Shown one piece after another: positions 29,927 to 63,456 of a stretch of DNA of 64,000 nt. The stretch is from positions 251,840-315,839 of the forward strand of contig JACPBB010000001.1 of assembly GCA_016180525.1 (NCBI GenBank), given 5' to 3'. Made by a program: the position numbers and the translations under genes. Source of the DNA: Parcubacteria group bacterium. GTDB taxonomy: Bacteria; Patescibacteriota; Minisyncoccia; Phycocordibacterales; UBA2135. Within the stretch, counting starts at the first letter, position 1. Each line of letters opens with the position of its first letter. The notes beneath the pieces were generated by a model that saw only the letters and a program-made list of their open reading frames with translations, was not told where the DNA came from and made no database searches.

Positions 29927-31040
29927 CGTGTTGTTTACTAAAAAATTCTTTTACCGCCGCAATAACTTTGTCTTTATCTTTTTTGCTCAAATGAGATGAG
30001 GATGGGAGATAGAGACCATTCCACCCCAAATATTCTGAAACTGGAAACAATCCATTTTGTCTATGAGACGGCTGAAGGTGCATCGGTATAAAAAATGCTC
30101 GCGATTCTATCCCTTTTTTTGCGAGAAAATCGATAAGCTTGTCTCTCTCCCCCGGTTTTTTGAGCAGAATCCCGTACATCCAAAAGACCGAGCGAATTCG
30201 AGACTTTTCCGCAGGAAATATCAGGCGGTCTTTAAGAACTGAAAGATTTTTTGTGTAATATTTAGCATTTGCTCGTCTTTTATTTACTAATTCCTCTAGT
30301 CGTTCAAGCTGGGCAAGTCCGAGCGCCGCAAGAAGCGAACTTAACTTCATATTCCACGCAACTTTTTTATGATAATAACGATTTTTACCCTTTCCGGACC
30401 AATAGTGGTCTCTGAATTTTGACACCTCCTCTGCCAATTTTTTATCATTCGTCGCGACCATCCCTCCCTCGCCGGTCGTCACTAATTTATTCGCGTAAAA
30501 ACTAAAACATGCCGCGTCTCCCAATGCTCCCACCTTTTTCCCTTTGTATAAAGCGCCTTGCGCCTCCGCCGCGTCTTCTAAAATAAATAATTTATGTTTT
30601 CGCGCGATTTTTTTTATTTCATCCATATCGCACGGGTGTCCGTAAATATGAACAGGCATAATTGCTTTTGTCCGTTTCGTAATCTTTTTTTCTATTTGGG
30701 TAACGTCAATATTTCCATTTGGCTCACAGTCTACAAAAACAGATTTTGCGCCGCATTGTGCAACCGCGTTTGCGCACGCCGCCATGGTAAATGTAGGAAC
30801 GATGACCTCGTCCCCTTTACGAATACCGAGCGCCCAAAGCGCGAGAAATAAGGCAGAGGCACCGGAGTTTACGGTAATCGCGTATTTCACGCCTGTCTTT
30901 TTTGCAAACGCTTTTTCAAATAACCCAACATATTTAGCCATACCGGAAATGTGCCCTGTTTTAATGGCGTCCATGACATAGCGTATCTCCCGTTGTGTTA
31001 TGTCCGGCTCGCAGACACGAATAATATTCTTAGGTTTCAT
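29877..31040 (-). CDS. DegT/DnrJ/EryC1/StrS-family PLP-dependent sugar aminotransferase
   Basis: GDEVIVPTFTMAACANAV, SFYANKLVTTGEGGMV, AIMPVHIYGHPCDMD. The last ~17 codons are encoded by repeat element A. Confidence 0.9.
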   Translation of the reverse strand: MKPKNIIRVCEPDITQREIRYVMDAIKTGHISGMAKYVGLFEKAFAKKTGVKYAITVNSGASALFLALWALGIRKGDEVIVPTFTMAACANAVAQCGAKSVFVDCEPNGNIDVTQIEKKITKRTKAIMPVHIYGHPCDMDEIKKIARKHKLFILEDAAEAQGALYKGKKVGALGDAACFSFYANKLVTTGEGGMVATNDKKLAEEVSKFRDHYWSGKGKNRYYHKKVAWNMKLSSLLAALGLAQLERLEELVNKRRANAKYYTKNLSVLKDRLIFPAEKSRIRSVFWMYGILLKKPGERDKLIDFLAKKGIESRAFFIPMHLQPSHRQNGLFPVSEYLGWNGLYLPSSSHLSKKDKDKVIAAVKEFFSKQHDTKSTKSMRKPRKENS

Positions 31041-31227
31041 TTTTAAAATTTCTAATTAATCTAATTACTCTAATTATTCTAATCAAATCCCAATTAATTA
31101 AATCCTAAATTAGAAATCCTAAATCCTAAACAAATACAAAATTCAAATGAAAAAATTATTAAGTGTTTTTATTTTTTGAATTTTTGATTTCGATATTGTT
31201 TAGAGTTTAGATATTAGGATTTAGAAT
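31041..31227. repeat. structured 187-bp intercistronic spacer: degenerate about 9-bp tandem repeat (TCTAATTAN x4) plus long imperfect inverted repeat
   Basis: TCTAATTAATCTAATTACTCTAATTATTCTAATCAAA..., AAATCCTAAATTAGAAATCCTAAATCCTAAAC versus the reverse complement of GTTTAGAGTTTAGATATTAGGATTTAGAATTT, and a nested inverted repeat CAAAATTCAAA / TTTGAATTTTG. Confidence 0.6.
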
Positions 31228-31624: not shown

Positions 31625-31713
31625 GATGCGAAAACAGCGAAATCTATGCGAAATGTGCGAAATTATGAATTTTCTTTTCGCGGTTTTCGCATGCTTTTTG
31701 TGGATTTCGCATC
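31625..31713. repeat. about 90-bp repeat element, copy B
   Basis: GATGCGAAAACAGCGAAATCTATGCGAAATGTGCGAAATTATGAATTTTCTTTTCGCGGTTTTCGCATGCTTTTTGTGGATTTCGCATC. Immediately upstream of the ATG of the cupin gene (31611) and just past the stop of the C-methyltransferase gene. Confidence 0.85.
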
Positions 31714-55757: not shown

Positions 55758-57170
55758 TTATTCCTTTTCTTCAAGAATTGTAAAGTCCTCTGCCGTAACA
55801 GTCTCGCCTGACTCTTCTAGCAAAGGAGCGCGAAAAACGAAAAAGAAGCCGAGAAACCCCATAAGCATGAGCCCCGCGAATCCGAAAAGCCATTTCATTA
55901 TGGAATTGTTTTGGCTATGTGCTCCTACGGCTGCCGCAACTTGTGTCTTTTCCGAAGCTGATTCTTCATTATTTAAAACAGGCTTTTCTTTTAATGCTTT
56001 GGTATCTGCATCTTTAGAGACGGTTACAACTATTGGAAGTGGAGATGCAATTGGGGGCACAGGAATATAAGCAGAAGCAATGTTTCCATTTGGATAAAGA
56101 AGGGCAACATCGCCACTAAAAGCAAGTCCGGTTACTTGCGGAGCAAATCGCAATGTTTTTCCTGAAGCGATAAGCGTATTTGCTGGAACCATAAAATGCC
56201 CACCTTCCGAGCGCAATACCCACCCTTCAAGATTGACTTCGTATTTTGTGTTGTTTGTAACTGCTATAAAAAAATCCTGAGGTGTGCCGATACCACTTAC
56301 CGCAATGTCAGAGGGAACAGTCATCACATTTATTTTTGCTGACGCGGCGTATCCGCCGGAACTCCCCTCAAGAACAACTATATATTCCCCGGGATAGCGA
56401 TATGTGTGAGAAACTGCCGAGCCCTCTCCCCTTTCACCGTCTCCGAAACTCCACAGAAAGCGGACGTTCTCTATGGGCTCACTCTTAAGGCCAAGAGCAG
56501 AGCCGCGAAAGGCAATTGGAGCGCCCACAAGCGCGACACGCCTTACCTGCCCCGCGCTCACAGTAATTGTTTGCTTTGGTTCTGGCGCATAAATACTTTC
56601 CGAGTTTCCTACAACTGGCCCTTCAAGTGTCTCACCCGCTGTCTCTTGGTTATTTCCTCCACCTTCATCATTTGTCACCCCAGGAGTTGGTAGTGCGGCA
56701 ATCCATTGTCCCTGTATTAATTGAATTGATAAGCCGTTTTTTTGTGCGCCAGCATTTTCCCCATATGAAACTGAGCCAACGGTCACACCACTTTCATTAG
56801 CCAGAGATAAAATATCGCCAATATCAGTGAGAGAAAAAGAGCCGTCAATCACAGTGCCAGAAAATCCTTGGTGCGTATTTAAAAATGTATCGGCCTCTTT
56901 GGCGATAATAGCATATGCGTTGGGAGACACGGTAAGAGTTCCTTGTCCCCCGTTCTTAGGCGGCTTTTCAAAAACGTGATTTGTTCCATCATTAAATCGC
57001 CATTCTGTGAGATCAACTGATTCACTTCCCTCATTTAAAATCTCAAACCATTCGTAGGCAACACCCTCTTCCGGAGCATACATTATTTCGGTAATTACTA
57101 CTTGCGCATGCGAAAAGACCGGAAAAAGAAAGAGAAATAAAGCTAATAATAAAGCAGCATGTCGTTTCAT
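55758..57170 (-). CDS. secreted/membrane-anchored surface protein with lamin-tail domains (LTD)
   Basis: Signal peptide MKRHAALLLALFLFLFPVFSHA. VVITEIMYAPEEGVAYEWFEILNEGSESVDLTEWRF is a classic LTD. A second LTD-like segment follows, then a C-terminal TM anchor. The track start is a TTG. Confidence 0.7.
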   Translation of the reverse strand: MKRHAALLLALFLFLFPVFSHAQVVITEIMYAPEEGVAYEWFEILNEGSESVDLTEWRFNDGTNHVFEKPPKNGGQGTLTVSPNAYAIIAKEADTFLNTHQGFSGTVIDGSFSLTDIGDILSLANESGVTVGSVSYGENAGAQKNGLSIQLIQGQWIAALPTPGVTNDEGGGNNQETAGETLEGPVVGNSESIYAPEPKQTITVSAGQVRRVALVGAPIAFRGSALGLKSEPIENVRFLWSFGDGERGEGSAVSHTYRYPGEYIVVLEGSSGGYAASAKINVMTVPSDIAVSGIGTPQDFFIAVTNNTKYEVNLEGWVLRSEGGHFMVPANTLIASGKTLRFAPQVTGLAFSGDVALLYPNGNIASAYIPVPPIASPLPIVVTVSKDADTKALKEKPVLNNEESASEKTQVAAAVGAHSQNNSIMKWLFGFAGLMLMGFLGFFFVFRAPLLEESGETVTAEDFTILEEKE

Positions 57171-57204
57171 TGAACTAGATTCTAGCAAACTATGTATTAT
57201 TTTC

Positions 57205-57238
57205 AAGAAAAAACGTCTGAAGAAATTACTTCAGACGT
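57205..57238 (-). terminator. rho-independent terminator after the NYN-domain gene
   Basis: ACGTCTGAAG-AAATTA-CTTCAGACGT 10-bp stem. On the minus strand it is followed by TTTTTTCTTG. Confidence 0.7.
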
Positions 57239-57255
57239 TTATGAAAAACTTTAAA

Positions 57256-58833
57256 TTATTGTGTGCGTGTCATTCTTCCGAATCGTGCTCCGTATCCGTG
57301 AACTCTTTGGTGATTCTTTTGAAACACCGTGAGATGTTTTGGTTCAACAAACAAAACAGAATCTGCCATGTTGTGTGATTTCTGATTTAAATGACCATGC
57401 TGTGCGATAAAGGCAATAGTTAATTTCGTATTCGTCTCTCTGGCCGCATGCCGCAAATGATGGAGCGTATGGTTGTAATCGCCGTCTCCCGTAACAAGAA
57501 TAACGTGAACGGTTGTATATTTTTCCATCGCGTCCCGCACAAAGAATCCTATGTCGCCAGACATGACTACGTCAGTATCCTTTTTCGGATGCCGAATAAT
57601 CGTAAATCCTTCCTGCTTTGCATTAAATTCAACATCACTCGCCAAAACTCCCGTCCACACATACGCGTATAAGCCCTGTATTCTTTCACGCGCGGATGGT
57701 TCTTGCATAATTGCAAGACGTAGAGCGTGCCAGTTGAGATTTTGAATGGAAAGTATTCTTCTCCCACATTCCTTTCCGTCTCCATCTACACCCTCTCGCG
57801 CTCCTGTAAGATTGCCGACATCAACGAAGATGAATGTTATCGGCTCCGTGCTTCTTTCGTCCTTCTTTTCGGCACGTTTTTTCAGGTCTTTAAGCGTTTC
57901 TGTCCTTACTAATTGAAATCCATCAGGCACTTGAAGCAATCCGACGGGCTTTTGTTCCGGCTTTTTAGGAAAAGAAACATATTTTTTGGGAATATCATTC
58001 CTTAAAATCTTTACCCGTTGAATACTCTGCCTACCACGGCCTTCTAAATCGTACACAAGCTGTATACATCCACGGTCATTGAGGTCTATTAAATAGGCCC
58101 GATATGCAACCTTGTACCGCCCGAGTTGTTTTTCTTCCACAACACCGAGAATTGCGATGCGACAGAGTTCTTCAAGTAGTGCAGAGAGATTTTTCCTCCT
58201 CGCCTCTTCGCCAGAGCCCCGGTGGGATGCAATGGGCCGCAAATTTGATAATACAGCACGATTTCTATCACTCTCATGAAGAGCGATAAAATCCATTTGA
58301 ACTTCTGTCACCGCGAAGTGCGCCGGTGTGTCCGACTGAAAAAGATTTGGCTTAAAAGGTTTTGTGGATGCCACCACTTCTTTATTGAATCCAGCACTCC
58401 CCGATAACTTCTTTTTTTGAATGGCCTGTATATCCTCCTCTGTACACTCAAGAAGCGTAAGCATTTGAGTCCAGCTCAGTGATAACGCAGTGCAAGCAAC
58501 CTTAAGTGCCGCGACAATATTTCCTTGAATTAATTCAACGTATTCTATTTTACCTCCATGCCGACGATCAATTACATCAGTTTCATACCTTACCTTAAGA
58601 CATGAACCATTGAACGGAATTTTTGACTTTTCTTTTGCGTCAAGAGCAAATAGGAATTCGTATCGCGCAGGATTTTCAAAAAACGGAGAAAGCTGAGCGC
58701 GCGGAACCCTATTCCCTAAAGAAATTGAATGCAGGTACACAAGAACGCCCGGGAGCTTCATTTCCCGCCCAAGACCCTTCTTTTTCATAGACAACACATG
58801 TTCCAGATATGCGACACTGCCTAGAGTGTGCAT
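57256..58833 (-). CDS. NYN/LabA-like (PIN-fold) domain protein with a large uncharacterised N-terminal domain
   Basis: C-terminal ITFIFVDVGNL...VHVILVTGDGDYNHTLHHLR matches the NYN/LabA catalytic signature. About 330-aa N-terminal region of unknown function. Strong GGAAGGAG Shine-Dalgarno upstream. Confidence 0.55.
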   Translation of the reverse strand: MHTLGSVAYLEHVLSMKKKGLGREMKLPGVLVYLHSISLGNRVPRAQLSPFFENPARYEFLFALDAKEKSKIPFNGSCLKVRYETDVIDRRHGGKIEYVELIQGNIVAALKVACTALSLSWTQMLTLLECTEEDIQAIQKKKLSGSAGFNKEVVASTKPFKPNLFQSDTPAHFAVTEVQMDFIALHESDRNRAVLSNLRPIASHRGSGEEARRKNLSALLEELCRIAILGVVEEKQLGRYKVAYRAYLIDLNDRGCIQLVYDLEGRGRQSIQRVKILRNDIPKKYVSFPKKPEQKPVGLLQVPDGFQLVRTETLKDLKKRAEKKDERSTEPITFIFVDVGNLTGAREGVDGDGKECGRRILSIQNLNWHALRLAIMQEPSARERIQGLYAYVWTGVLASDVEFNAKQEGFTIIRHPKKDTDVVMSGDIGFFVRDAMEKYTTVHVILVTGDGDYNHTLHHLRHAARETNTKLTIAFIAQHGHLNQKSHNMADSVLFVEPKHLTVFQKNHQRVHGYGARFGRMTRTQ

Positions 58834-58887
58834 GTTTCAACCGCTCCTTCCGTGGTTGCATTCCGGTGGAAATACTACCATATTTCA

Positions 58888-58913
58888 ATAAAAAAGCAAG
58901 TTTTAAAACTTGC
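58888..58913 (-). terminator. rho-independent terminator after gene 58970-60169 (perfect palindrome GCAAGTTTTAAAACTTGC + T-tract)
   Basis: 18-bp perfect palindrome at about 58896-58913, followed on the minus strand by TTTTTTAT. Confidence 0.6.
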
Positions 58914-58930
58914 ACATGTTTTTAGTGTAG

Positions 58931-58956
58931 AACTATTCCAGTATACTGGAATAGTT
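58931..58956. promoter_or_regulatory. perfect 26-bp palindrome AACTATTCCAGTA|TACTGGAATAGTT (candidate operator)
   Basis: Seen directly. Lies between the stop of 58970-60169 and the terminator, about 100 bp upstream of the NYN gene start. Confidence 0.5.
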
Positions 58957-58969
58957 TATGTTGGATTTT

Positions 58970-60169
58970 TTATTTTTGTAAAGAAGACAGCACTGTGTTT
59001 ACTAACTTATTTTTTTCTTCTTCGCTTAGAAATTGCTCCGGACCGCCAGACGGCTTTCCTGCAAGAAGCCATTGCTTAAAACAATCTTTGTATGTAGTAA
59101 GCGGTACCGAGACAAGCACAATATCGTCAACTTTTCTTTTGACATATTTGTTAAATCTTTCTTCATCTATTTTCCCCCGCGCTTCTTTTATCTGGTGCTT
59201 CTTCTTTATCAAGTTTGCACCTATGCTAGAAATCGTAAATTGAATGCCCACTATTCGCTTGTTTTTTACAAACTCATCTCTTGACATATCCGTACCCTCT
59301 ACAGCAACACCGAGAACTTTTTGGAGTATATAGACCTTAAAATCGTATTTTAATTCTGTATCTTCAATTGCGTTTGCCGACTCTACCTTAAATAGTATTT
59401 CCGGATTATTATATGACATTCTTATTAAAATATTTTTTGCCATTTTCTCTCCAATAGCACCAACTATAATCGTTCCTTGGAAGTGTTTTTCTATAAATTC
59501 TTCGTCTATATTTGTTCCCCCATGTGTTATTCCTTCAACAACAACAATTTCATCATTAAAAATTGCACCAATCTTCTGTCGCGCTTCTGATAAATCAGAT
59601 AATTTTCTTATTTTGCGCCAAACATCACGAGGGCACGATTCATCAGGCCTATATAAAATCCCCCAGTCCATGTCTGCTACGACATCACCGAATGTAATTT
59701 GTTTTTTCTTTCCATTTACATTTACAAAAATGCCCTTGTTCTCTTCGTTAAAAAAGACGACGCGCCTCCTTACTCTTTCCTCTTCAGGATAATCAATATG
59801 AGAATCAATGTCTTTAAGCCGTTTCTTTAATACATTCATTTCAATTCTTTTATCCGCGACAAAACCAGCCCGCTGAATATTTGAAGCTTCTTTTTGTTGT
59901 TTTTGTTTTTCCTTAATGCTTCTTTTGACTCTTATGCCATATTGAGGCGCGAATACACCTCTTTTTGTTTTCTTTGCTTTTTGAGAAGTTTTTTTTTCTT
60001 GTATTTCTTGAGTTGTTTTTATTTGTGACTGCTCTTTACTAAAATCATTTTTTGGAACTTCAACAGCCCTTGTCGCGTCTAACATCTCCTCTAGCTGCTC
60101 CGCGGCGATTGCTTCAGCCGCAAGTTTTTCCATCGGTGGTTTTAAATTTTCTGGTAAAAAATGCTCCAT
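58970..60169 (-). CDS. hypothetical protein with Lys/Glu-rich N-terminal low-complexity region
   Basis: 399 aa with no recognisable domain. Sits immediately downstream of the T4CP-like ATPase, separated from it by a 5-nt gap. Confidence 0.5.
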   Translation of the reverse strand: MEHFLPENLKPPMEKLAAEAIAAEQLEEMLDATRAVEVPKNDFSKEQSQIKTTQEIQEKKTSQKAKKTKRGVFAPQYGIRVKRSIKEKQKQQKEASNIQRAGFVADKRIEMNVLKKRLKDIDSHIDYPEEERVRRRVVFFNEENKGIFVNVNGKKKQITFGDVVADMDWGILYRPDESCPRDVWRKIRKLSDLSEARQKIGAIFNDEIVVVEGITHGGTNIDEEFIEKHFQGTIIVGAIGEKMAKNILIRMSYNNPEILFKVESANAIEDTELKYDFKVYILQKVLGVAVEGTDMSRDEFVKNKRIVGIQFTISSIGANLIKKKHQIKEARGKIDEERFNKYVKRKVDDIVLVSVPLTTYKDCFKQWLLAGKPSGGPEQFLSEEEKNKLVNTVLSSLQK

Positions 60170-60174
60170 AAATA

Positions 60175-62229
60175 TTATTTGGGATTTCTTTCATCGCCCG
60201 AGCTCATATCTAACATTTTTTTAAGCTCATCTTCAGGAATTTCCGGAATATTTTTTGGTTCTTCTTTTTTGGCCTCTTGAACATTTGGTTTTTGCTGCAC
60301 ATCGTTTGTTATTGGCTCCTTGTCATTTGCCGTCTCTTGTCTGTTGTTTCTTGCTCCGCGCGCTTCACTTCCCGAGGTTGGGATTTCTTGTTCCTTCGCC
60401 TGAAGAGCTTCTTTGAGCGTTTTCCGCAACTCATCCGCGTTTTGAGAGACCGATTCTTTTTGAGGAGAATTGGGACGAAGCGAACTTAATGAGACGGGCT
60501 GCTCTACGCGCTCTCTCGGCCATCGGTTTGACGAAGTTAGATCTTGAGAAGACGTAATCGGCTCCTGCCTTTTTTCATATATCCTCTGTGACGTTGGCCT
60601 TTCTCCCCTCAAGGTTCTTTCTGTTCTCGGAGGTCTGCCGTCGTTCCTCCTGTCAACATAAGTAGCATTAAATGCTTTTTTAAATGGCTGATGAACTGGC
60701 TGTTCATCCACCCGTCCGCCCCTTTGAGAGCGCTCGCCTACCCATGCGTTGCGCGCAGGTGGGCGAAGAGGCGCGGCAACAGCGGGCTCCCGCATAGGCG
60801 CCCTTTTTTGTTCATCTACTTGAGGAGAGCGAAATTCTCTTTCTCTTTCAGGTGGCCTTTGAAAATCTTTGCGTGGAGTGTCAAGCCGACTTTCTCTATA
60901 AGGCTTTTCCTTCTTTGACTGCTTTTCCGGAGGAGGTGCGGAGAGGTGCCGCTCTAAAATTTTAGATTCTACCTCCGCACGCGGGCGTGCGTATGTCTCC
61001 CGTGAATGGACGAGCACTTCTTCTTTCCATGACCGCGCCGGTTTTTCAATCGGAGGAAGAGTCACTGAAGAGAATGGTTTTGAGGCAAGTCCATCAATCA
61101 TTAACTTTAAATAAATTTGGTAGTATCCGAGGTTTACCAAATCCTCCGCCATAAAAGTCGGAGAAAATTCTTTCTCTAAAACCTCTGCGTCTTCAGCGCC
61201 GACCCGAAACACAATCGTGGTGCCCACGTTTCCAAAGACCGCCTCACGCACTTCATCAGGCATCTGACCTATATATTGGTGTGCAATAGTAAGAGATAAT
61301 TTATATTTACGCGATTCAGACAAAATATCGGCAAATGTTTCGTTCGCAAATGACTGGAATTCATCAACAAAAAAATAAAACGGGGGGAGTTTATTAAGTT
61401 CTGCGGCGGTTGTGTCAGCCCGAGACATTGCCGCAAGATAGATTTTAATAATGAGCATGCTCCCAATCAGTTTCGCGTTCGTGTCTCCAATTCTTCCTTT
61501 TGATAAGTTGATAATAAGAATCTTCTTCCCGTCCATCGCCTCTCTGAAATCAAATGAGGATTTTGGTTGACCTATAATATTTCTAATAAGCGGGTTTGAG
61601 ACGAATTGCCCGATTTTATTTTGAATTGCGGGAGTCGCTTCTTGTGTATATCTATCGGTATATTTTGCAAATTCATCAACCCAAAATGATTTGATAACTG
61701 GATCAGTAATATGGTCAACGACATCCTTGCGAAATTCTTTATTTACGAGCATGCGATTCACGTCAAGAAGCGTTGAATCCGGATATTCCAAAAGCGCAAA
61801 GAGCGTATTGCTTAAAATGTATTCCATTCTCGCCGACCATACATCGGGCCAGATTTTTTTAAACGTACTGATGAGACCGCTCACGACGAGGTGGCGTTTG
61901 TCATATCCCACATCTTCCATCACATTAAATGAAATAGGGAAATTTGCGTCAAAAGGTGCGAAGTGAATAACATCGTTTACGCGCTCTTCGGGAACATAAT
62001 CAAGAAGCGCGGCAGTTACTTCTCCGTGTGGGTCAATAAAGGCCATGCCATTCCCGTTTTGAATATCTTGCACTGCCATATTTTGTAAAAGTACCGTTTT
62101 CCCCATCCCCGTTTTTCCAATAACGTAGATGTGTTTACTGCGATCAAGCGCCTTAATGCCGAACACTTGTTCTTTCCCCCGATAATCCGCTTTTGCAAAA
62201 TATGTTTTTCTGCTTGTATCTTCTTTCAT
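60175..62229 (-). CDS. P-loop NTPase of the TraD/TrwB/VirD4 (type IV coupling protein) / HerA-FtsK superfamily, no TM segments, about 270-aa disordered C-terminal tail
   Basis: DRSKHIYVIGKTGMGKTVLL (Walker A), AFIDPHGE (cf. DPKGE of T4CPs), FYFFVDEFQSF (Walker B). The C-terminal about 270 aa are low complexity, rich in R/E/P/K/Q. Confidence 0.6.
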   Translation of the reverse strand: MKEDTSRKTYFAKADYRGKEQVFGIKALDRSKHIYVIGKTGMGKTVLLQNMAVQDIQNGNGMAFIDPHGEVTAALLDYVPEERVNDVIHFAPFDANFPISFNVMEDVGYDKRHLVVSGLISTFKKIWPDVWSARMEYILSNTLFALLEYPDSTLLDVNRMLVNKEFRKDVVDHITDPVIKSFWVDEFAKYTDRYTQEATPAIQNKIGQFVSNPLIRNIIGQPKSSFDFREAMDGKKILIINLSKGRIGDTNAKLIGSMLIIKIYLAAMSRADTTAAELNKLPPFYFFVDEFQSFANETFADILSESRKYKLSLTIAHQYIGQMPDEVREAVFGNVGTTIVFRVGAEDAEVLEKEFSPTFMAEDLVNLGYYQIYLKLMIDGLASKPFSSVTLPPIEKPARSWKEEVLVHSRETYARPRAEVESKILERHLSAPPPEKQSKKEKPYRESRLDTPRKDFQRPPEREREFRSPQVDEQKRAPMREPAVAAPLRPPARNAWVGERSQRGGRVDEQPVHQPFKKAFNATYVDRRNDGRPPRTERTLRGERPTSQRIYEKRQEPITSSQDLTSSNRWPRERVEQPVSLSSLRPNSPQKESVSQNADELRKTLKEALQAKEQEIPTSGSEARGARNNRQETANDKEPITNDVQQKPNVQEAKKEEPKNIPEIPEDELKKMLDMSSGDERNPK

Positions 62230-62253
62230 AGATTGAATTTTAACACAAATTTA

Positions 62254-63456
62254 CTATTCAGTCAAATCACCTAAAAGAGCCTCACGAGTATATTGATTTG
62301 AAGGATCCCACAACATCCAGCTATCCAGGCCGGCATCATAAACAGCCTGCATTTGTGTTTTAACCATATCTACTGTATAGGGTACTGGGTAATCAAAGTC
62401 CTGAAGCCATGGACGGAGTTTCTCTGGCGTTGAGCTTGCCGCGGTCAATCGCGCTGCCGCTCTATCCATTGAAAACTTGACGATTTCATACGGATACGCA
62501 TTTACGTTCTGGTATCCATTAAATCCCTTTGGATAATGAGACGGGTATACCATTGGTGCAATATAATCAAAATACGGCTCTGCAAACTCAAGTACCTGTC
62601 CGATGTTTAAATCGTCTGTGTTTGTGGAGGCCATTCCAAACAAATCAGCCGAAAGAATCACTCCGCTCTTTTTCAGCCCTTCGTAGAGATGGGCGAAAAA
62701 TTCTTTAAGCGTATGCGCTTTGCCAAATGCGGGGTCGGCAATAATACGCGCCTCACTCCATGGATAATAAATATCACGCATATTTCCGTCTGACGGGAAG
62801 CGAATGTAATCGTAGTTCAGTTCGTCAAAACCGATTTGGTAAGATTCCAAAGAAAGGTCAATTATATAACTCCAATATTCTTGCGCGCCAGCGTCTATAA
62901 AACTGATACCTTTATAATCTTTCCAAATTGTTTTGTCGGATTCTTTCTGCACAGCAAGGTCAGGTCGTTTTTTCGCAAAAAAGGGGTCTTGAAACACCGT
63001 AATCCGCCCAATGACATAAATATTTTTTTCGTGAAGCGTACGTATAAACTCTTTCATGTCCTGTACGCGACAGGTAATGCCGAGTGCTTCATTTAAATGA
63101 GAATTTTTAGTTTCAAACGCTATATTACCGCTGTAATCCTTGATGTCTATAATAATTGAGTTTAATTTTGTCTCCTCAATCAATTTTACCAGCCGACTGC
63201 GGATACTTGGGGTTCCCGCGACACAACTTGTCATGTAGATGCCATATACGGATTTCGGCGTTTTTATGTGAGTAACGGGTGGCTCCTTTATTTCTTCCGC
63301 AGCCTCTTCAAGCGCCGCAAGATAACTATCTCCATTGCCCGGCTCATAGACCGTTCTCACAAAAAAAGGTACGGTAAAAAATGCTACGGCGGCAAATAAA
63401 AAAAAGCCGACGCCCATAAGTATGTATCTTCTACTTATTGTTTTCATGTGGGACAT
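62254..63456 (-). CDS. putative glycoside hydrolase-like TIM-barrel protein (GHL/DUF4015-like) with N-terminal TM anchor
   Basis: TM anchor YILMGVGFFLFAAVAFF, then VYGIYMTSCVAG...IIIDIKDYSG...DELNYDYIRFP is typical of uncharacterised GH-like families. Confidence 0.35.
   Translation of the reverse strand: MSHMKTISRRYILMGVGFFLFAAVAFFTVPFFVRTVYEPGNGDSYLAALEEAAEEIKEPPVTHIKTPKSVYGIYMTSCVAGTPSIRSRLVKLIEETKLNSIIIDIKDYSGNIAFETKNSHLNEALGITCRVQDMKEFIRTLHEKNIYVIGRITVFQDPFFAKKRPDLAVQKESDKTIWKDYKGISFIDAGAQEYWSYIIDLSLESYQIGFDELNYDYIRFPSDGNMRDIYYPWSEARIIADPAFGKAHTLKEFFAHLYEGLKKSGVILSADLFGMASTNTDDLNIGQVLEFAEPYFDYIAPMVYPSHYPKGFNGYQNVNAYPYEIVKFSMDRAAARLTAASSTPEKLRPWLQDFDYPVPYTVDMVKTQMQAVYDAGLDSWMLWDPSNQYTREALLGDLTE

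What the first reader, a model, noticed from the sequence alone, without database searches (positions are those of the whole stretch)
57256..58833. Monocistronic NYN-domain (PIN-like nuclease fold) gene with a large unknown N-terminal domain, insulated by terminators and two perfect palindromes
The C-terminus carries the NYN/LabA signature (D...N...GDGD). About 330 aa of uncharacterised sequence precede it. The gene has its own strong Shine-Dalgarno (GGAAGGAG). A rho-independent terminator lies just upstream (58888-58913, itself a perfect 18-bp palindrome) and another just downstream (57205-57238). A perfect 26-bp palindrome (58931-58956), a candidate operator, sits at its 5' side. It looks somewhat GC-richer than the glycan genes, by eye only. 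NYN nucleases recur in toxin/antitoxin and anti-phage systems. With the adjacent unknown 399-aa protein and the T4CP/HerA-like ATPase, this is the best candidate in the window for an uncharacterised defence or DNA-processing system.
Basis: partly seen in the sequence, partly recalled or inferred. Interest (0 to 1): 0.7.

Follow-up and report, generated by a model that had tools for sequence, protein, structure and literature searches.

The report
Winged-helix NYN nuclease gene in Paceibacteria
This is a stand-alone gene of an uncultured Parcubacteria (Paceibacteria) bacterium that encodes two nucleic-acid-binding winged-helix modules fused to a LabA/MARF1-type NYN nuclease; it belongs to a very small, fast-evolving family, and it does not form a system with the neighbouring ATPase.

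Summary
The 525-aa ORF, its Shine-Dalgarno, both flanking terminator hairpins and the two perfect palindromes are all at the stated positions. The C-terminus is an NYN/LabA-type fold with intact acidic residues.

The "unknown 330 aa" is resolved. It is two winged-helix (WH) modules separated by a disordered linker, and WH1 is a diverged duplicate of WH2.

The family is tiny: 22 representatives among 1.84 billion. The loci examined are Patescibacteria-type contigs. Most members are about 330 aa, with one WH plus NYN.

The proposed three-gene system is not supported:
- The T4CP-like ATPase is a widespread gene of Paceibacteria (more than 585 species hits, 67-76% identity). It normally sits as DUF4015 - ATPase - LTD/PKD protein. 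None of 80 such loci carries this NYN family.
- The 399-aa gene is absent from three of the four related NYN loci where the slot can be read. Its homologues lie in unrelated contexts elsewhere.
- The NYN gene is a lineage-specific insertion with its own promoter, conserved in six loci.
- Its GC content is unremarkable (z = +1.1).
- There is no known defence system, no antitoxin and no viral relative.

The gene does evolve much faster than its neighbours, so a conflict role is not excluded.

Best reading: a WH-targeted, metal-dependent endonuclease, probably acting on RNA. It is a new variant of a known kind and of modest interest.

The parts
57256..58833 (-). CDS, 525 aa: WH1 - disordered linker - WH2 - linker - NYN nuclease
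   Evidence: ORF. The start is supported by alignment with P0002 and P0023. AlphaFold model has mean pLDDT 83.6.
58399..58821 (-). WH1 (aa 5-145): a winged-helix module with a three-helix C-terminal extension. It occurs only in the long forms of the family.
   Evidence: pLDDT is mostly above 90. hhalign of WH1 against WH2 gives probability 90%, E = 1.4e-6, which points to an internal duplication. pI is 9.2.
58255..58392 (-). Disordered linker (aa 148-193), variable in length and sequence
   Evidence: pLDDT is below 50 in both models. The region is poorly aligned within the family.
57994..58221 (-). WH2 (aa 205-280): the family's core winged-helix module, with motifs RGxG...NLxxLLxxL...GCI..RGR..I.LL
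57334..57846 (-). NYN (LabA / LK-nuclease type) domain, aa 330-500, with D338, N341, D419, D421, D427, D450 and D452
   Evidence: Foldseek: 2qip E = 4.3e-7, TMt 0.70; MARF1 NYN TMt 0.71-0.74. Family profile against PDB: 2qip E = 3.9e-5. Pfam NYN matches 21 of 23 members. Conserved columns are listed.
58844..58851 (-). Shine-Dalgarno GGAAGGAG, 10 nt before the ATG
   Evidence: Read directly from the sequence. An AGGAG is kept at the same place in L001, L009, L010 and L012.
58872..58899 (-). Putative own promoter: -35 TTGCTT (58899-58894), 16-nt spacer, TG-extended -10 TAGTAT (58877-58872)
   Evidence: The block ACTTGC-TTTTTT...ATATGgTAgtAT is the only well-conserved part of the upstream region in window, L001, L009, L010 and L012, and it is also present in L098. 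It falls below the consensus scanner's threshold. No experimental transcription start site exists.
58890..58913 (-). Terminator-like hairpin of the upstream gene: an 18-bp perfect palindrome plus a T-run. Its 3' arm and T-run overlap the -35 element.
   Evidence: An equivalent hairpin plus T9 occurs in L012.
58931..58956 (-). 26-bp perfect palindrome, starting 14 nt after the stop of the 399-aa gene. It is probably a 3' hairpin; an operator role is unproven.
   Evidence: 0 of 300 shuffles. Long zero-spacer palindromes occur at the same place in L010 (40 bp, perfect), L001 (40 bp, 75%) and L012 (32 bp, 88%), but with different sequences.
57201..57240 (-). Intrinsic terminator of the NYN gene: 12-pair stem, 6-nt loop, T-run. 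The LTD/PKD gene's own promoter-like site (57206-57179) follows it.

Best explanation
The gene encodes a cytoplasmic, modular nuclease. Two basic winged-helix modules are tethered by flexible linkers to a LabA/LK-type NYN domain. WH2 is the family's core module, and WH1 is a diverged duplicate of it.

**Proposed mechanism.** The WH modules bind a structured or double-stranded nucleic-acid element, or a protein partner. This places the NYN active site next to a single-stranded stretch. The NYN domain then cuts that stretch in a divalent-metal-dependent reaction, using D338, D421/D427 and D450/D452. The substrate is most probably RNA, by analogy with MARF1 and the bacterial NYN-plus-OST-HTH proteins.

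**Genomic status.** The gene is its own transcription unit, with a conserved promoter and a terminator on each side. It was inserted, in one sub-lineage of Paceibacteria, between two genes that are usually adjacent: the T4CP-like ATPase and the LTD/PKD surface protein. It is not a component of a system with the ATPase or with the 399-aa protein.

**Shown.**
- The ORF and its signals.
- The domain architecture, from a confident structure prediction.
- The NYN fold and its conserved acidic residues.
- The WH duplication.
- The rarity and distribution of the family.
- The synteny facts.

**Inferred.**
- Nuclease activity.
- RNA rather than DNA as substrate.
- Targeting by the WH modules.
- A role in RNA turnover or regulation rather than in immunity.
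For: **Architecture.** The AlphaFold model has mean pLDDT 83.6, with three folded blocks.

**NYN domain.**
- Foldseek to 2qip gives E = 4.3e-7. MARF1 NYN domains give TMt 0.71-0.74.
- The family profile against PDB finds 2qip at E = 3.9e-5, with the LVSGDGD motif aligned.
- Pfam NYN matches 21 of 23 members.
- D338, N341, D419, D421, D427 and D450 are invariant or nearly so.

**WH modules.**
- WH1 against WH2 by hhalign gives probability 90%, E = 1.4e-6.
- The pI values are 9.2 and 9.9.

**Family.** There are 22 representatives at E <= 1e-3 among 1.84e9. Most are about 330 aa, with one WH plus NYN.

**Independence from the neighbours.**
- The ATPase has more than 585 species hits at 67-76% identity. 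Of the 80 best loci, 55 have DUF4015 nearby upstream, 24 have LTD/PKD directly downstream, and none has this NYN family.
- The literature reports 5,713 VirD4-like T4CPs in 2,918 Patescibacteria genomes, mostly away from virB4 (PMC12102498).
- Family members elsewhere sit next to SHMT and thymidylate genes, ribosomal protein S15, or DnaX.
- The 399-aa gene is absent from L001 (only a 3' remnant is left), L010 and L012.

**Own transcription unit.** The promoter block is conserved in six loci, and there is a terminator on each side.

**Native composition.** GC z = +1.07.

**Precedent.** LK-nuclease (DUF88, 2qip) combined with a wHTH RNA-binding domain is a known bacterial and eukaryotic architecture (PMC2848206).
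Against: - No biochemical or expression data exist for any family member.
- The window protein itself is below Pfam's NYN gathering score (22.5 against 24.2 bits).
- The WH modules match no specific WH family, so a choice between RNA, DNA or protein as ligand cannot be made.
- The gene evolves far faster than its neighbours. Against L009, the ATPase N-terminus is 91% identical, DUF4015 83% and the 399-aa protein 67%, but NYN only 34%. The gene is also split in L009. This fits a conflict gene or a dispensable gene better than a housekeeping RNase.
- ATPase-NYN-LTD adjacency persists in five loci, down to 31% NYN identity. Some functional link therefore cannot be ruled out.
Confidence: 0.55

Rival explanations
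1. The gene is a single-gene conflict or defence nuclease of Paceibacteria, for example an abortive-infection or anti-mobile-element effector. The WH modules sense foreign nucleic acid. NYN then degrades invader or host RNA/DNA.
For: - NYN evolves much faster than all its neighbours: 31-35% identity, against 64-91% for the ATPase and 73-83% for DUF4015.
- The family's distribution is patchy. The gene is a lineage-specific insertion.
- The gene is disrupted in L009.
- The PADLOC generic NYN model hits 9 of 23 members, best E = 1.2e-6.
- Duplication and turnover of the sensor-like WH module.
Against: - No known system architecture is matched. The PADLOC hit covers only about 50 residues of a 310-position model.
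- There is no adjacent immunity, antitoxin or partner gene.
- The neighbours are housekeeping and glycan genes, not a defence island.
- The position has been inherited vertically across deep divergence.
- Composition is native.
- No relatives occur in IMG/VR, and there are no PHROGs hits.
Confidence: 0.2
2. The gene is a functional accessory of the conserved DUF4015 - T4CP-like ATPase - LTD/PKD module. The nuclease would process nucleic acid that the ATPase translocates, for example for uptake and nucleotide salvage in these auxotrophic bacteria.
For: - The order ATPase-NYN-LTD/PKD is kept in window, L009, L010 and L012, and ATPase-NYN in L001 whose contig ends before the LTD position, with NYN identity down to 31% and with both long and short forms.
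- One distant member lies at the end of a thymidylate/dNTP-metabolism cluster.
Against: - None of the 80 other ATPase loci carries the family.
- The whole neighbourhood is syntenic in the five loci, so adjacency may simply be inherited.
- The NYN gene has its own promoter and is bracketed by terminators.
- Other family members lie in unrelated contexts.
Confidence: 0.12
3. The 26-bp palindrome is an operator bound by the protein's own WH modules, giving autoregulation. It could also be a DNA or RNA hairpin that is the enzyme's cognate substrate. This reading can be combined with any of the explanations above.
For: - The two longest perfect palindromes of the window lie within 61 bp, just 5' of the gene.
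- L010 has a 40-bp perfect palindrome, L001 a 40-bp imperfect one and L012 a 32-bp imperfect one at the same location. L001 and L010 share the outer ends ATTACT...AGTAAT.
- Two WH modules per polypeptide would suit a dyad-symmetric site.
Against: - The palindrome sequences are not conserved. The site in L001 that is orthologous to the window palindrome is not palindromic.
- No long palindrome lies upstream of family genes in L009, L098, L013, L014 or L015.
- The palindrome lies upstream of the conserved promoter and directly after the stop of the preceding gene. That is where 3' hairpins are expected, and long terminator hairpins are common in this window.
Confidence: 0.15

Closest known systems
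Bacterial and eukaryotic LK-nuclease (DUF88 / LabA-like NYN, PF01936) proteins combined with an OST-HTH/LOTUS winged helix. Examples are VPA0982 (PDB 2qip), LabA/LalA and MARF1 (limkain b1).
   Same: The nuclease domain is of the same type. 2qip is the best match both by structure and by sequence profile, and MARF1 NYN comes next. The logic is also the same: a PIN-like nuclease tethered to a winged-helix nucleic-acid-binding module (PMC2848206).
   Different: - The WH modules are N-terminal, not C-terminal.
- The long form carries a tandem duplication of its own WH.
- In the loci examined, the family occurs only on Patescibacteria-type contigs and is very small.
PIN/VapC-type toxins of type II toxin-antitoxin modules
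   Same: The nuclease fold is PIN-like, with a cluster of acidic residues. A DNA-binding module and a palindrome lie near the promoter.
   Different: There is no separate antitoxin gene. The WH is fused to the nuclease rather than carried on a labile partner. The palindrome is not conserved and lies upstream of the promoter.
Rae1/YacP and PRORP-type NYN ribonucleases
   Same: NYN catalytic fold. The predicted activity is metal-dependent endoribonuclease.
   Different: There is no sequence-level match to these subfamilies in Pfam or NCBIfam. The accessory domains differ (ribosome-dependent action for Rae1, a PPR domain for PRORP; this is from general knowledge, not tested here). The genomic context is not a conserved housekeeping one.

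Membership tests
NYN domain (PF01936; LabA / DUF88 / LK-nuclease clade) | PIN-like alpha/beta fold of the NYN type | tested here: met
   Foldseek against PDB: 2qip E = 4.3e-7, TMt 0.70; MARF1 NYN (6fdl, 5yaa) TMt 0.71-0.74, probability 1.00. The model has pLDDT above 90 over most of aa 330-500.
NYN domain (PF01936; LabA / DUF88 / LK-nuclease clade) | Score at or above Pfam's gathering threshold | tested here: inconclusive
   The window protein scores 22.5 bits against a cut-off of 24.2, and the match covers only aa 398-489. But 21 of 23 family members match at E <= 0.1, best 8e-9. The family profile finds 2qip at E = 3.9e-5.
NYN domain (PF01936; LabA / DUF88 / LK-nuclease clade) | Conserved acidic/Asn active-site residues: D in strand 1 followed by N, central D residues, and a C-terminal GDxD motif | tested here: met
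   D338, N341, D419, D421, D427 and D450 are invariant or at least 90% conserved in 20-23 sequences. D452 is nearly invariant.
NYN domain (PF01936; LabA / DUF88 / LK-nuclease clade) | Metal-dependent nuclease activity | not testable with these tools
   This needs purified protein.
NYN + OST-HTH/LOTUS architecture (LabA/MARF1 type) | Presence of an OST-HTH (PF12872) domain | tested here: not met
Type II toxin-antitoxin (PIN/VapC-like) | Adjacent small antitoxin gene co-transcribed with the nuclease | tested here: not met
   No small ORF partner is present. The gene is bracketed by terminators, and the neighbours are a 399-aa conserved hypothetical and an LTD/PKD protein.
Known anti-phage defence systems (PADLOC-DB v2) | Full-length match to a system component, plus the system's other genes nearby | tested here: not met
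   There is only a partial hit to the generic NYN model: E = 6.8e-4, 51 of 310 profile positions. The 399-aa, DUF4015 and LTD/PKD proteins have no hits.
MADS defence system (through the ATPase's mad8 hit) | mad8-like ATPase accompanied by other mad genes, with the patchy distribution typical of defence genes | tested here: not met
   The mad8 hit is E = 2.4e-16. But none of the four neighbouring proteins scanned hits any PADLOC model. The ATPase is widespread and 67-76% identical across more than 585 species genomes, with constant DUF4015 and LTD/PKD neighbours.
Type IV coupling protein (VirD4/TraD/TrwB) - the neighbouring ATPase | T4CP nucleotide-binding domain above the Pfam threshold | tested here: met
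   TrwB_AAD_bind scores 43.4 bits (cut-off 20.5), T4SS-DNA_transf 31.6 (20.1) and TraG-D_C 28.5 (22).
Type IV coupling protein (VirD4/TraD/TrwB) - the neighbouring ATPase | Encoded with a T4SS (virB4 and others) or a relaxase | not tested
   The rest of the window was not scanned for virB4 or a relaxase. The literature reports that most Patescibacteria T4CP homologues are encoded away from virB4 (PMC12102498).

The most novel reading that the evidence does not exclude
The WH-NYN family is a fast-evolving, Paceibacteria-specific single-protein surveillance nuclease. It recognises hairpin or palindromic nucleic acid through one or two WH modules. In one lineage it has been recruited next to the conserved T4CP-like translocase, to police or process nucleic acid entering the cell. 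The palindromes that turn over yet stay perfect at its 5' side would then be cognate binding or decoy sites that co-evolve with the WH modules.
Probability: 0.08. Interest if true: 0.6.

Novelty: new variant of a known kind. Interest (0 to 1): 0.3.

Why it matters
Patescibacteria (CPR) have small genomes in which many genes have no assigned function. Resolving one of them into a defined architecture (WH-WH-NYN) gives a testable biochemical hypothesis. It also removes a false lead, namely the supposed ATPase / 399-aa / NYN defence system.

If the protein proves to be a targeted RNase, it would extend the known 'NYN + winged helix' design (LabA, MARF1) to a new, independently assembled version. 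If its rapid evolution reflects conflict, it would be one of the few candidate immune effectors specific to CPR bacteria.

On present evidence it is an ordinary lineage-specific accessory nuclease gene.

Tried and rejected
1. **Word-indexed protein search.** With the single protein, and again with the 23-sequence alignment, it returned only the protein itself and one 58% relative. The exhaustive HMMER search was needed to find the family.
2. **The search for related loci.**
   - A2 found nothing in JGI metagenomes.
   - A11 found only a contig already known.
   - IMG/VR gave nothing.
3. **AFDB50 fold search.** It was unavailable. The BFVD viral library gave only a LabA-like DUF88 protein of an algal virus.
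4. **Sequence profiles of WH1, WH1+WH2 and the 399-aa family against PDB.** No significant hits.
5. **Rfam and tRNA scans of the region.** Nothing found.
6. **Possible link between the 399-aa protein and the 438-aa unknown next to a distant NYN member (L015).** They are unrelated.
7. **Promoter-like site 58982-58953.** It overlaps the palindrome and would make the palindrome an operator or leader hairpin. It was rejected as the main promoter for two reasons. It is not conserved in relatives, and the scanner's hits are no more numerous than in shuffles (16 found against 19 expected).
8. **Foreign origin by composition.** Rejected.
9. **Discordant phylogeny of NYN against the ATPase (gene replacement).** This could not be established. 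The ATPase tail identities for L001 and L009 (36% and 31%) are compatible with vertical descent plus fast NYN evolution.
Full report
**1. What is in the sequence**

The minus strand carries an ATG-initiated ORF of 525 aa at 57256-58833. GGAAGGAG lies 10 nt upstream of the ATG.

The upstream 399-aa gene stops at 58970. Three features follow it:
- A perfect 26-bp palindrome at 58956-58931.
- A perfect 18-bp palindrome at 58913-58896.
- A T-run after the second palindrome, which makes it terminator-like.

Downstream of the ORF lies a 12-pair hairpin plus T-run at 57240-57211. A promoter-like site for the next gene follows at 57206-57179.

The two palindromes are the longest perfect palindromes in the 64-kb window. 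None of 300 locally shuffled windows reached 26 bp. As RNA, the 142-nt upstream region folds with z = -4.4.

**2. What the protein is**

*Sequence searches.*
- Pfam gives only a sub-threshold NYN hit on aa 398-489: 22.5 bits against a cut-off of 24.2.
- An exhaustive HMMER search of 1.84 billion representatives finds just 22 proteins at E <= 1e-3.
- Pfam NYN matches 21 of the 23 aligned family members.
- The family profile finds PDB 2qip (VPA0982, the DUF88/LabA prototype) at E = 3.9e-5.

*Predicted structure.* The AlphaFold model has mean pLDDT 83.6 and shows these blocks:
- WH1, aa 5-145.
- A disordered linker, aa 148-193.
- WH2, aa 205-280.
- A second linker with one helix.
- An alpha/beta domain, aa 330-500.

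Foldseek places the last domain with 2qip (E = 4.3e-7) and with the MARF1 NYN domains (TMt 0.71-0.74). D338, N341, D419, D421, D427, D450 and D452 are conserved. The active site therefore looks intact.

Most family members are about 330 aa and have one WH plus NYN. The window protein and a few relatives carry the extra WH1. Profile-profile comparison of WH1 with WH2 gives probability 90% and E = 1.4e-6. The 'large unknown N-terminal domain' is therefore a tandem duplication of the family's own winged helix. Both WH modules are basic, with pI 9.2 and 9.9.

**3. The neighbourhood**

*Loci that share the arrangement.* The order DUF4015 - T4CP-like ATPase - [399-aa] - NYN - LTD/PKD protein recurs in four other contigs.

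| Locus | NYN identity to window | 399-aa gene | Notes |
|---|---|---|---|
| L001 | 58% | lost | only about 70 nt of its 3' end remain |
| L009 | about 34% | present | NYN split into two ORFs |
| L010 | 35% | absent | long form |
| L012 | 31% | absent | short 334-aa form |

*The 399-aa gene.* Its homologues in other Parcubacteria lie between unrelated genes: HSP20 and MurC in one case, MurJ and LepA in another.

*The ATPase.* It is not an accessory gene.
- A scan of one genome per species returned more than 585 confirmed relatives. The 80 best are 67-76% identical over 420 aa.
- Of these 80 loci, 55 have DUF4015 nearby upstream, mostly within about 1 kb, and 24 have an LTD/PKD protein immediately downstream.
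- None has a member of this NYN family within 8 kb.
- The literature agrees. It reports 5,713 VirD4-like T4CPs in 2,918 Patescibacteria genomes, mostly away from virB4 and possibly exapted (PMC12102498).
- The ATPase's PADLOC mad8 hit therefore reflects general ATPase similarity, not a MADS system.

*Other family members.* They sit in different places:
- After SHMT, at the end of a thymidylate/dNTP gene cluster.
- Next to ribosomal protein S15.
- Between an unrelated 438-aa unknown and DnaX.

*Conclusion.* NYN is an insertion into a widely conserved gene pair in one sub-lineage. The adjacency seen there is most simply explained by shared ancestry.

**4. Transcription signals and palindromes**

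The only well-conserved block upstream of the gene in the five syntenic loci is ACTTGC-TTTTTT...ATATGgTAgtAT. It is also present in L098. It corresponds to -35 TTGCTT, a 16-nt spacer and a TG-extended -10 TAGTAT. In the window, the -35 element overlaps the 3' arm of the 18-bp hairpin.

Long zero-spacer palindromes recur between the upstream gene and this promoter:

| Locus | Palindrome |
|---|---|
| Window | 26 bp, perfect |
| L010 | 40 bp, perfect |
| L001 | 40 bp, 75% complementary |
| L012 | 32 bp, 88% complementary |

Their sequences differ. The stretch of L001 that is orthologous to the window palindrome is not palindromic. No long palindrome is seen in L009 or L098, or upstream of family genes in other contexts.

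I read them as 3' hairpins of the upstream transcript, which turn over quickly. An operator or cognate-substrate role remains a minority possibility.

**5. Origin and evolutionary tempo**

The gene's GC is 44.0% (z = +1.07) and its GC3 z is +0.57. This matches both conserved neighbours. Nothing suggests recent transfer, and no tRNA or Rfam element lies nearby.

The gene does evolve much faster than its neighbours:

| Locus | ATPase | DUF4015 | 399-aa | LTD/PKD | NYN |
|---|---|---|---|---|---|
| L009 | 91% (N-terminal part) | 83% | 67% | - | 34% |
| L010 | 64% | 73% | - | 44% | 35% |

In L009 the linker also carries a 50-nt GC-rich repeat, and the reading frame is broken. This tempo fits either weak constraint or conflict-driven change. 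With the available sequences the two cannot be separated.

**6. Defence?**

- PADLOC gives only a partial hit to a generic NYN model.
- NCBIfam and PHROGs give nothing.
- IMG/VR holds no relative.
- There is no partner gene, and the surrounding genes are glycan-synthesis and housekeeping genes.

The defence reading is therefore not supported. Because of the fast evolution and patchy distribution, I keep it as the main rival (0.2).

**7. Comparison with the known, and verdict**

The closest known design is the LK-nuclease (DUF88/LabA NYN) tethered to an OST-HTH winged helix, as in bacterial LabA-like proteins and MARF1 (PMC2848206).

The nuclease domain here is a member of that clade: the fold, the motifs and the profile match are met, although the Pfam cut-off is narrowly missed by this one sequence. 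The WH modules are not OST-HTH, they are N-terminal, and they are duplicated. NCBI already labels the protein 'NYN domain-containing protein'.

I classify it as a new variant of a known kind. It is a small WH-NYN family, known so far only from Patescibacteria-type contigs. Most probably it is a WH-targeted, metal-dependent endonuclease acting on RNA (confidence 0.55).

Interest: 0.3.

Noticed in passing
window 55758-63456; loci L017-L096: DUF4015 (putative glycoside hydrolase) - T4CP-like ATPase - secreted LTD/PKD protein is a widely conserved gene trio in Paceibacteria. Of the 80 best species loci, 55 have DUF4015 nearby upstream, mostly within about 1 kb, and 24 have LTD/PKD directly downstream. 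The ATPase N-terminal 420 aa are 67-76% identical across these species. The trio's function is unknown and may deserve study in its own right.
   Followed up: partly
window 60175-60969 (ATPase aa ~420-684): The ATPase has a long C-terminal tail rich in Pro, Arg, Glu and Lys. The tail is only 28-36% identical in the four relatives, while the N-terminal part is far more conserved (91% over its first 226 aa in L009; 64% over the whole protein in L010 and L012). Only its last ~15 residues (IPExxLKKMLDM...) are visibly conserved in L001 and L009.
   Followed up: partly
window 58970-60169; L001 622-700: The 399-aa gene encodes a hypothetical protein with about 20 homologues, the named ones from Parcubacteria. 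Its C-terminal ~290 aa are conserved, and it has no Pfam or PDB match. Its GC is low (36.0%, z = -1.6). In L001 the gene has been deleted, leaving about 70 nt of its 3' end directly after the ATPase stop.
   Followed up: partly
L009 5793-5842 and 8050-8099: A 50-nt GC-rich repeat (86% identical, containing GCGCGCCGCGC...GCGCGCGC) occurs twice. One copy is inside the 5' part of the 399-aa homologue. The other is inside the linker of the NYN gene, where the reading frame breaks into ORFs of 300 and 312 aa. It may be a small intragenic repeat element, or an assembly error.
   Followed up: partly
L098 121-160: The deposited start of P0024 (MVLCCQYTEAKRTED...) lies inside the conserved promoter block. 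The true start is probably the Met of MPEFSPGSEQ, 16 codons downstream.
   Followed up: partly
window 57170-57206: The mechanical ORF for the LTD/PKD protein starts at TTG 57206, inside a promoter-like site (57206-57179). Gene callers and the signal-peptide-like sequence favour the ATG at 57170, which gives 470 aa.
   Followed up: partly
window 31042-31223 and 31625-31713: These are the largest imperfect inverted repeats of the window: 57-nt arms at 70% complementarity, built from AAATCCTAAAT-like units, and 38-nt arms at 74%, built from GCGAAA-like units. They lie in what looks like a long intergenic stretch between the genes ending near 31040 and 31712.
   Followed up: no
L013 661-8969: A distant family member (P0030) lies at the end of a compact thymidylate/dNTP-metabolism cluster: DHFR, dCMP deaminase, ThyA, two dUTPase-like genes, Tmk and SHMT. 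This is a single observation. It may hint at a link to nucleotide metabolism, or it may be coincidence.
   Followed up: no
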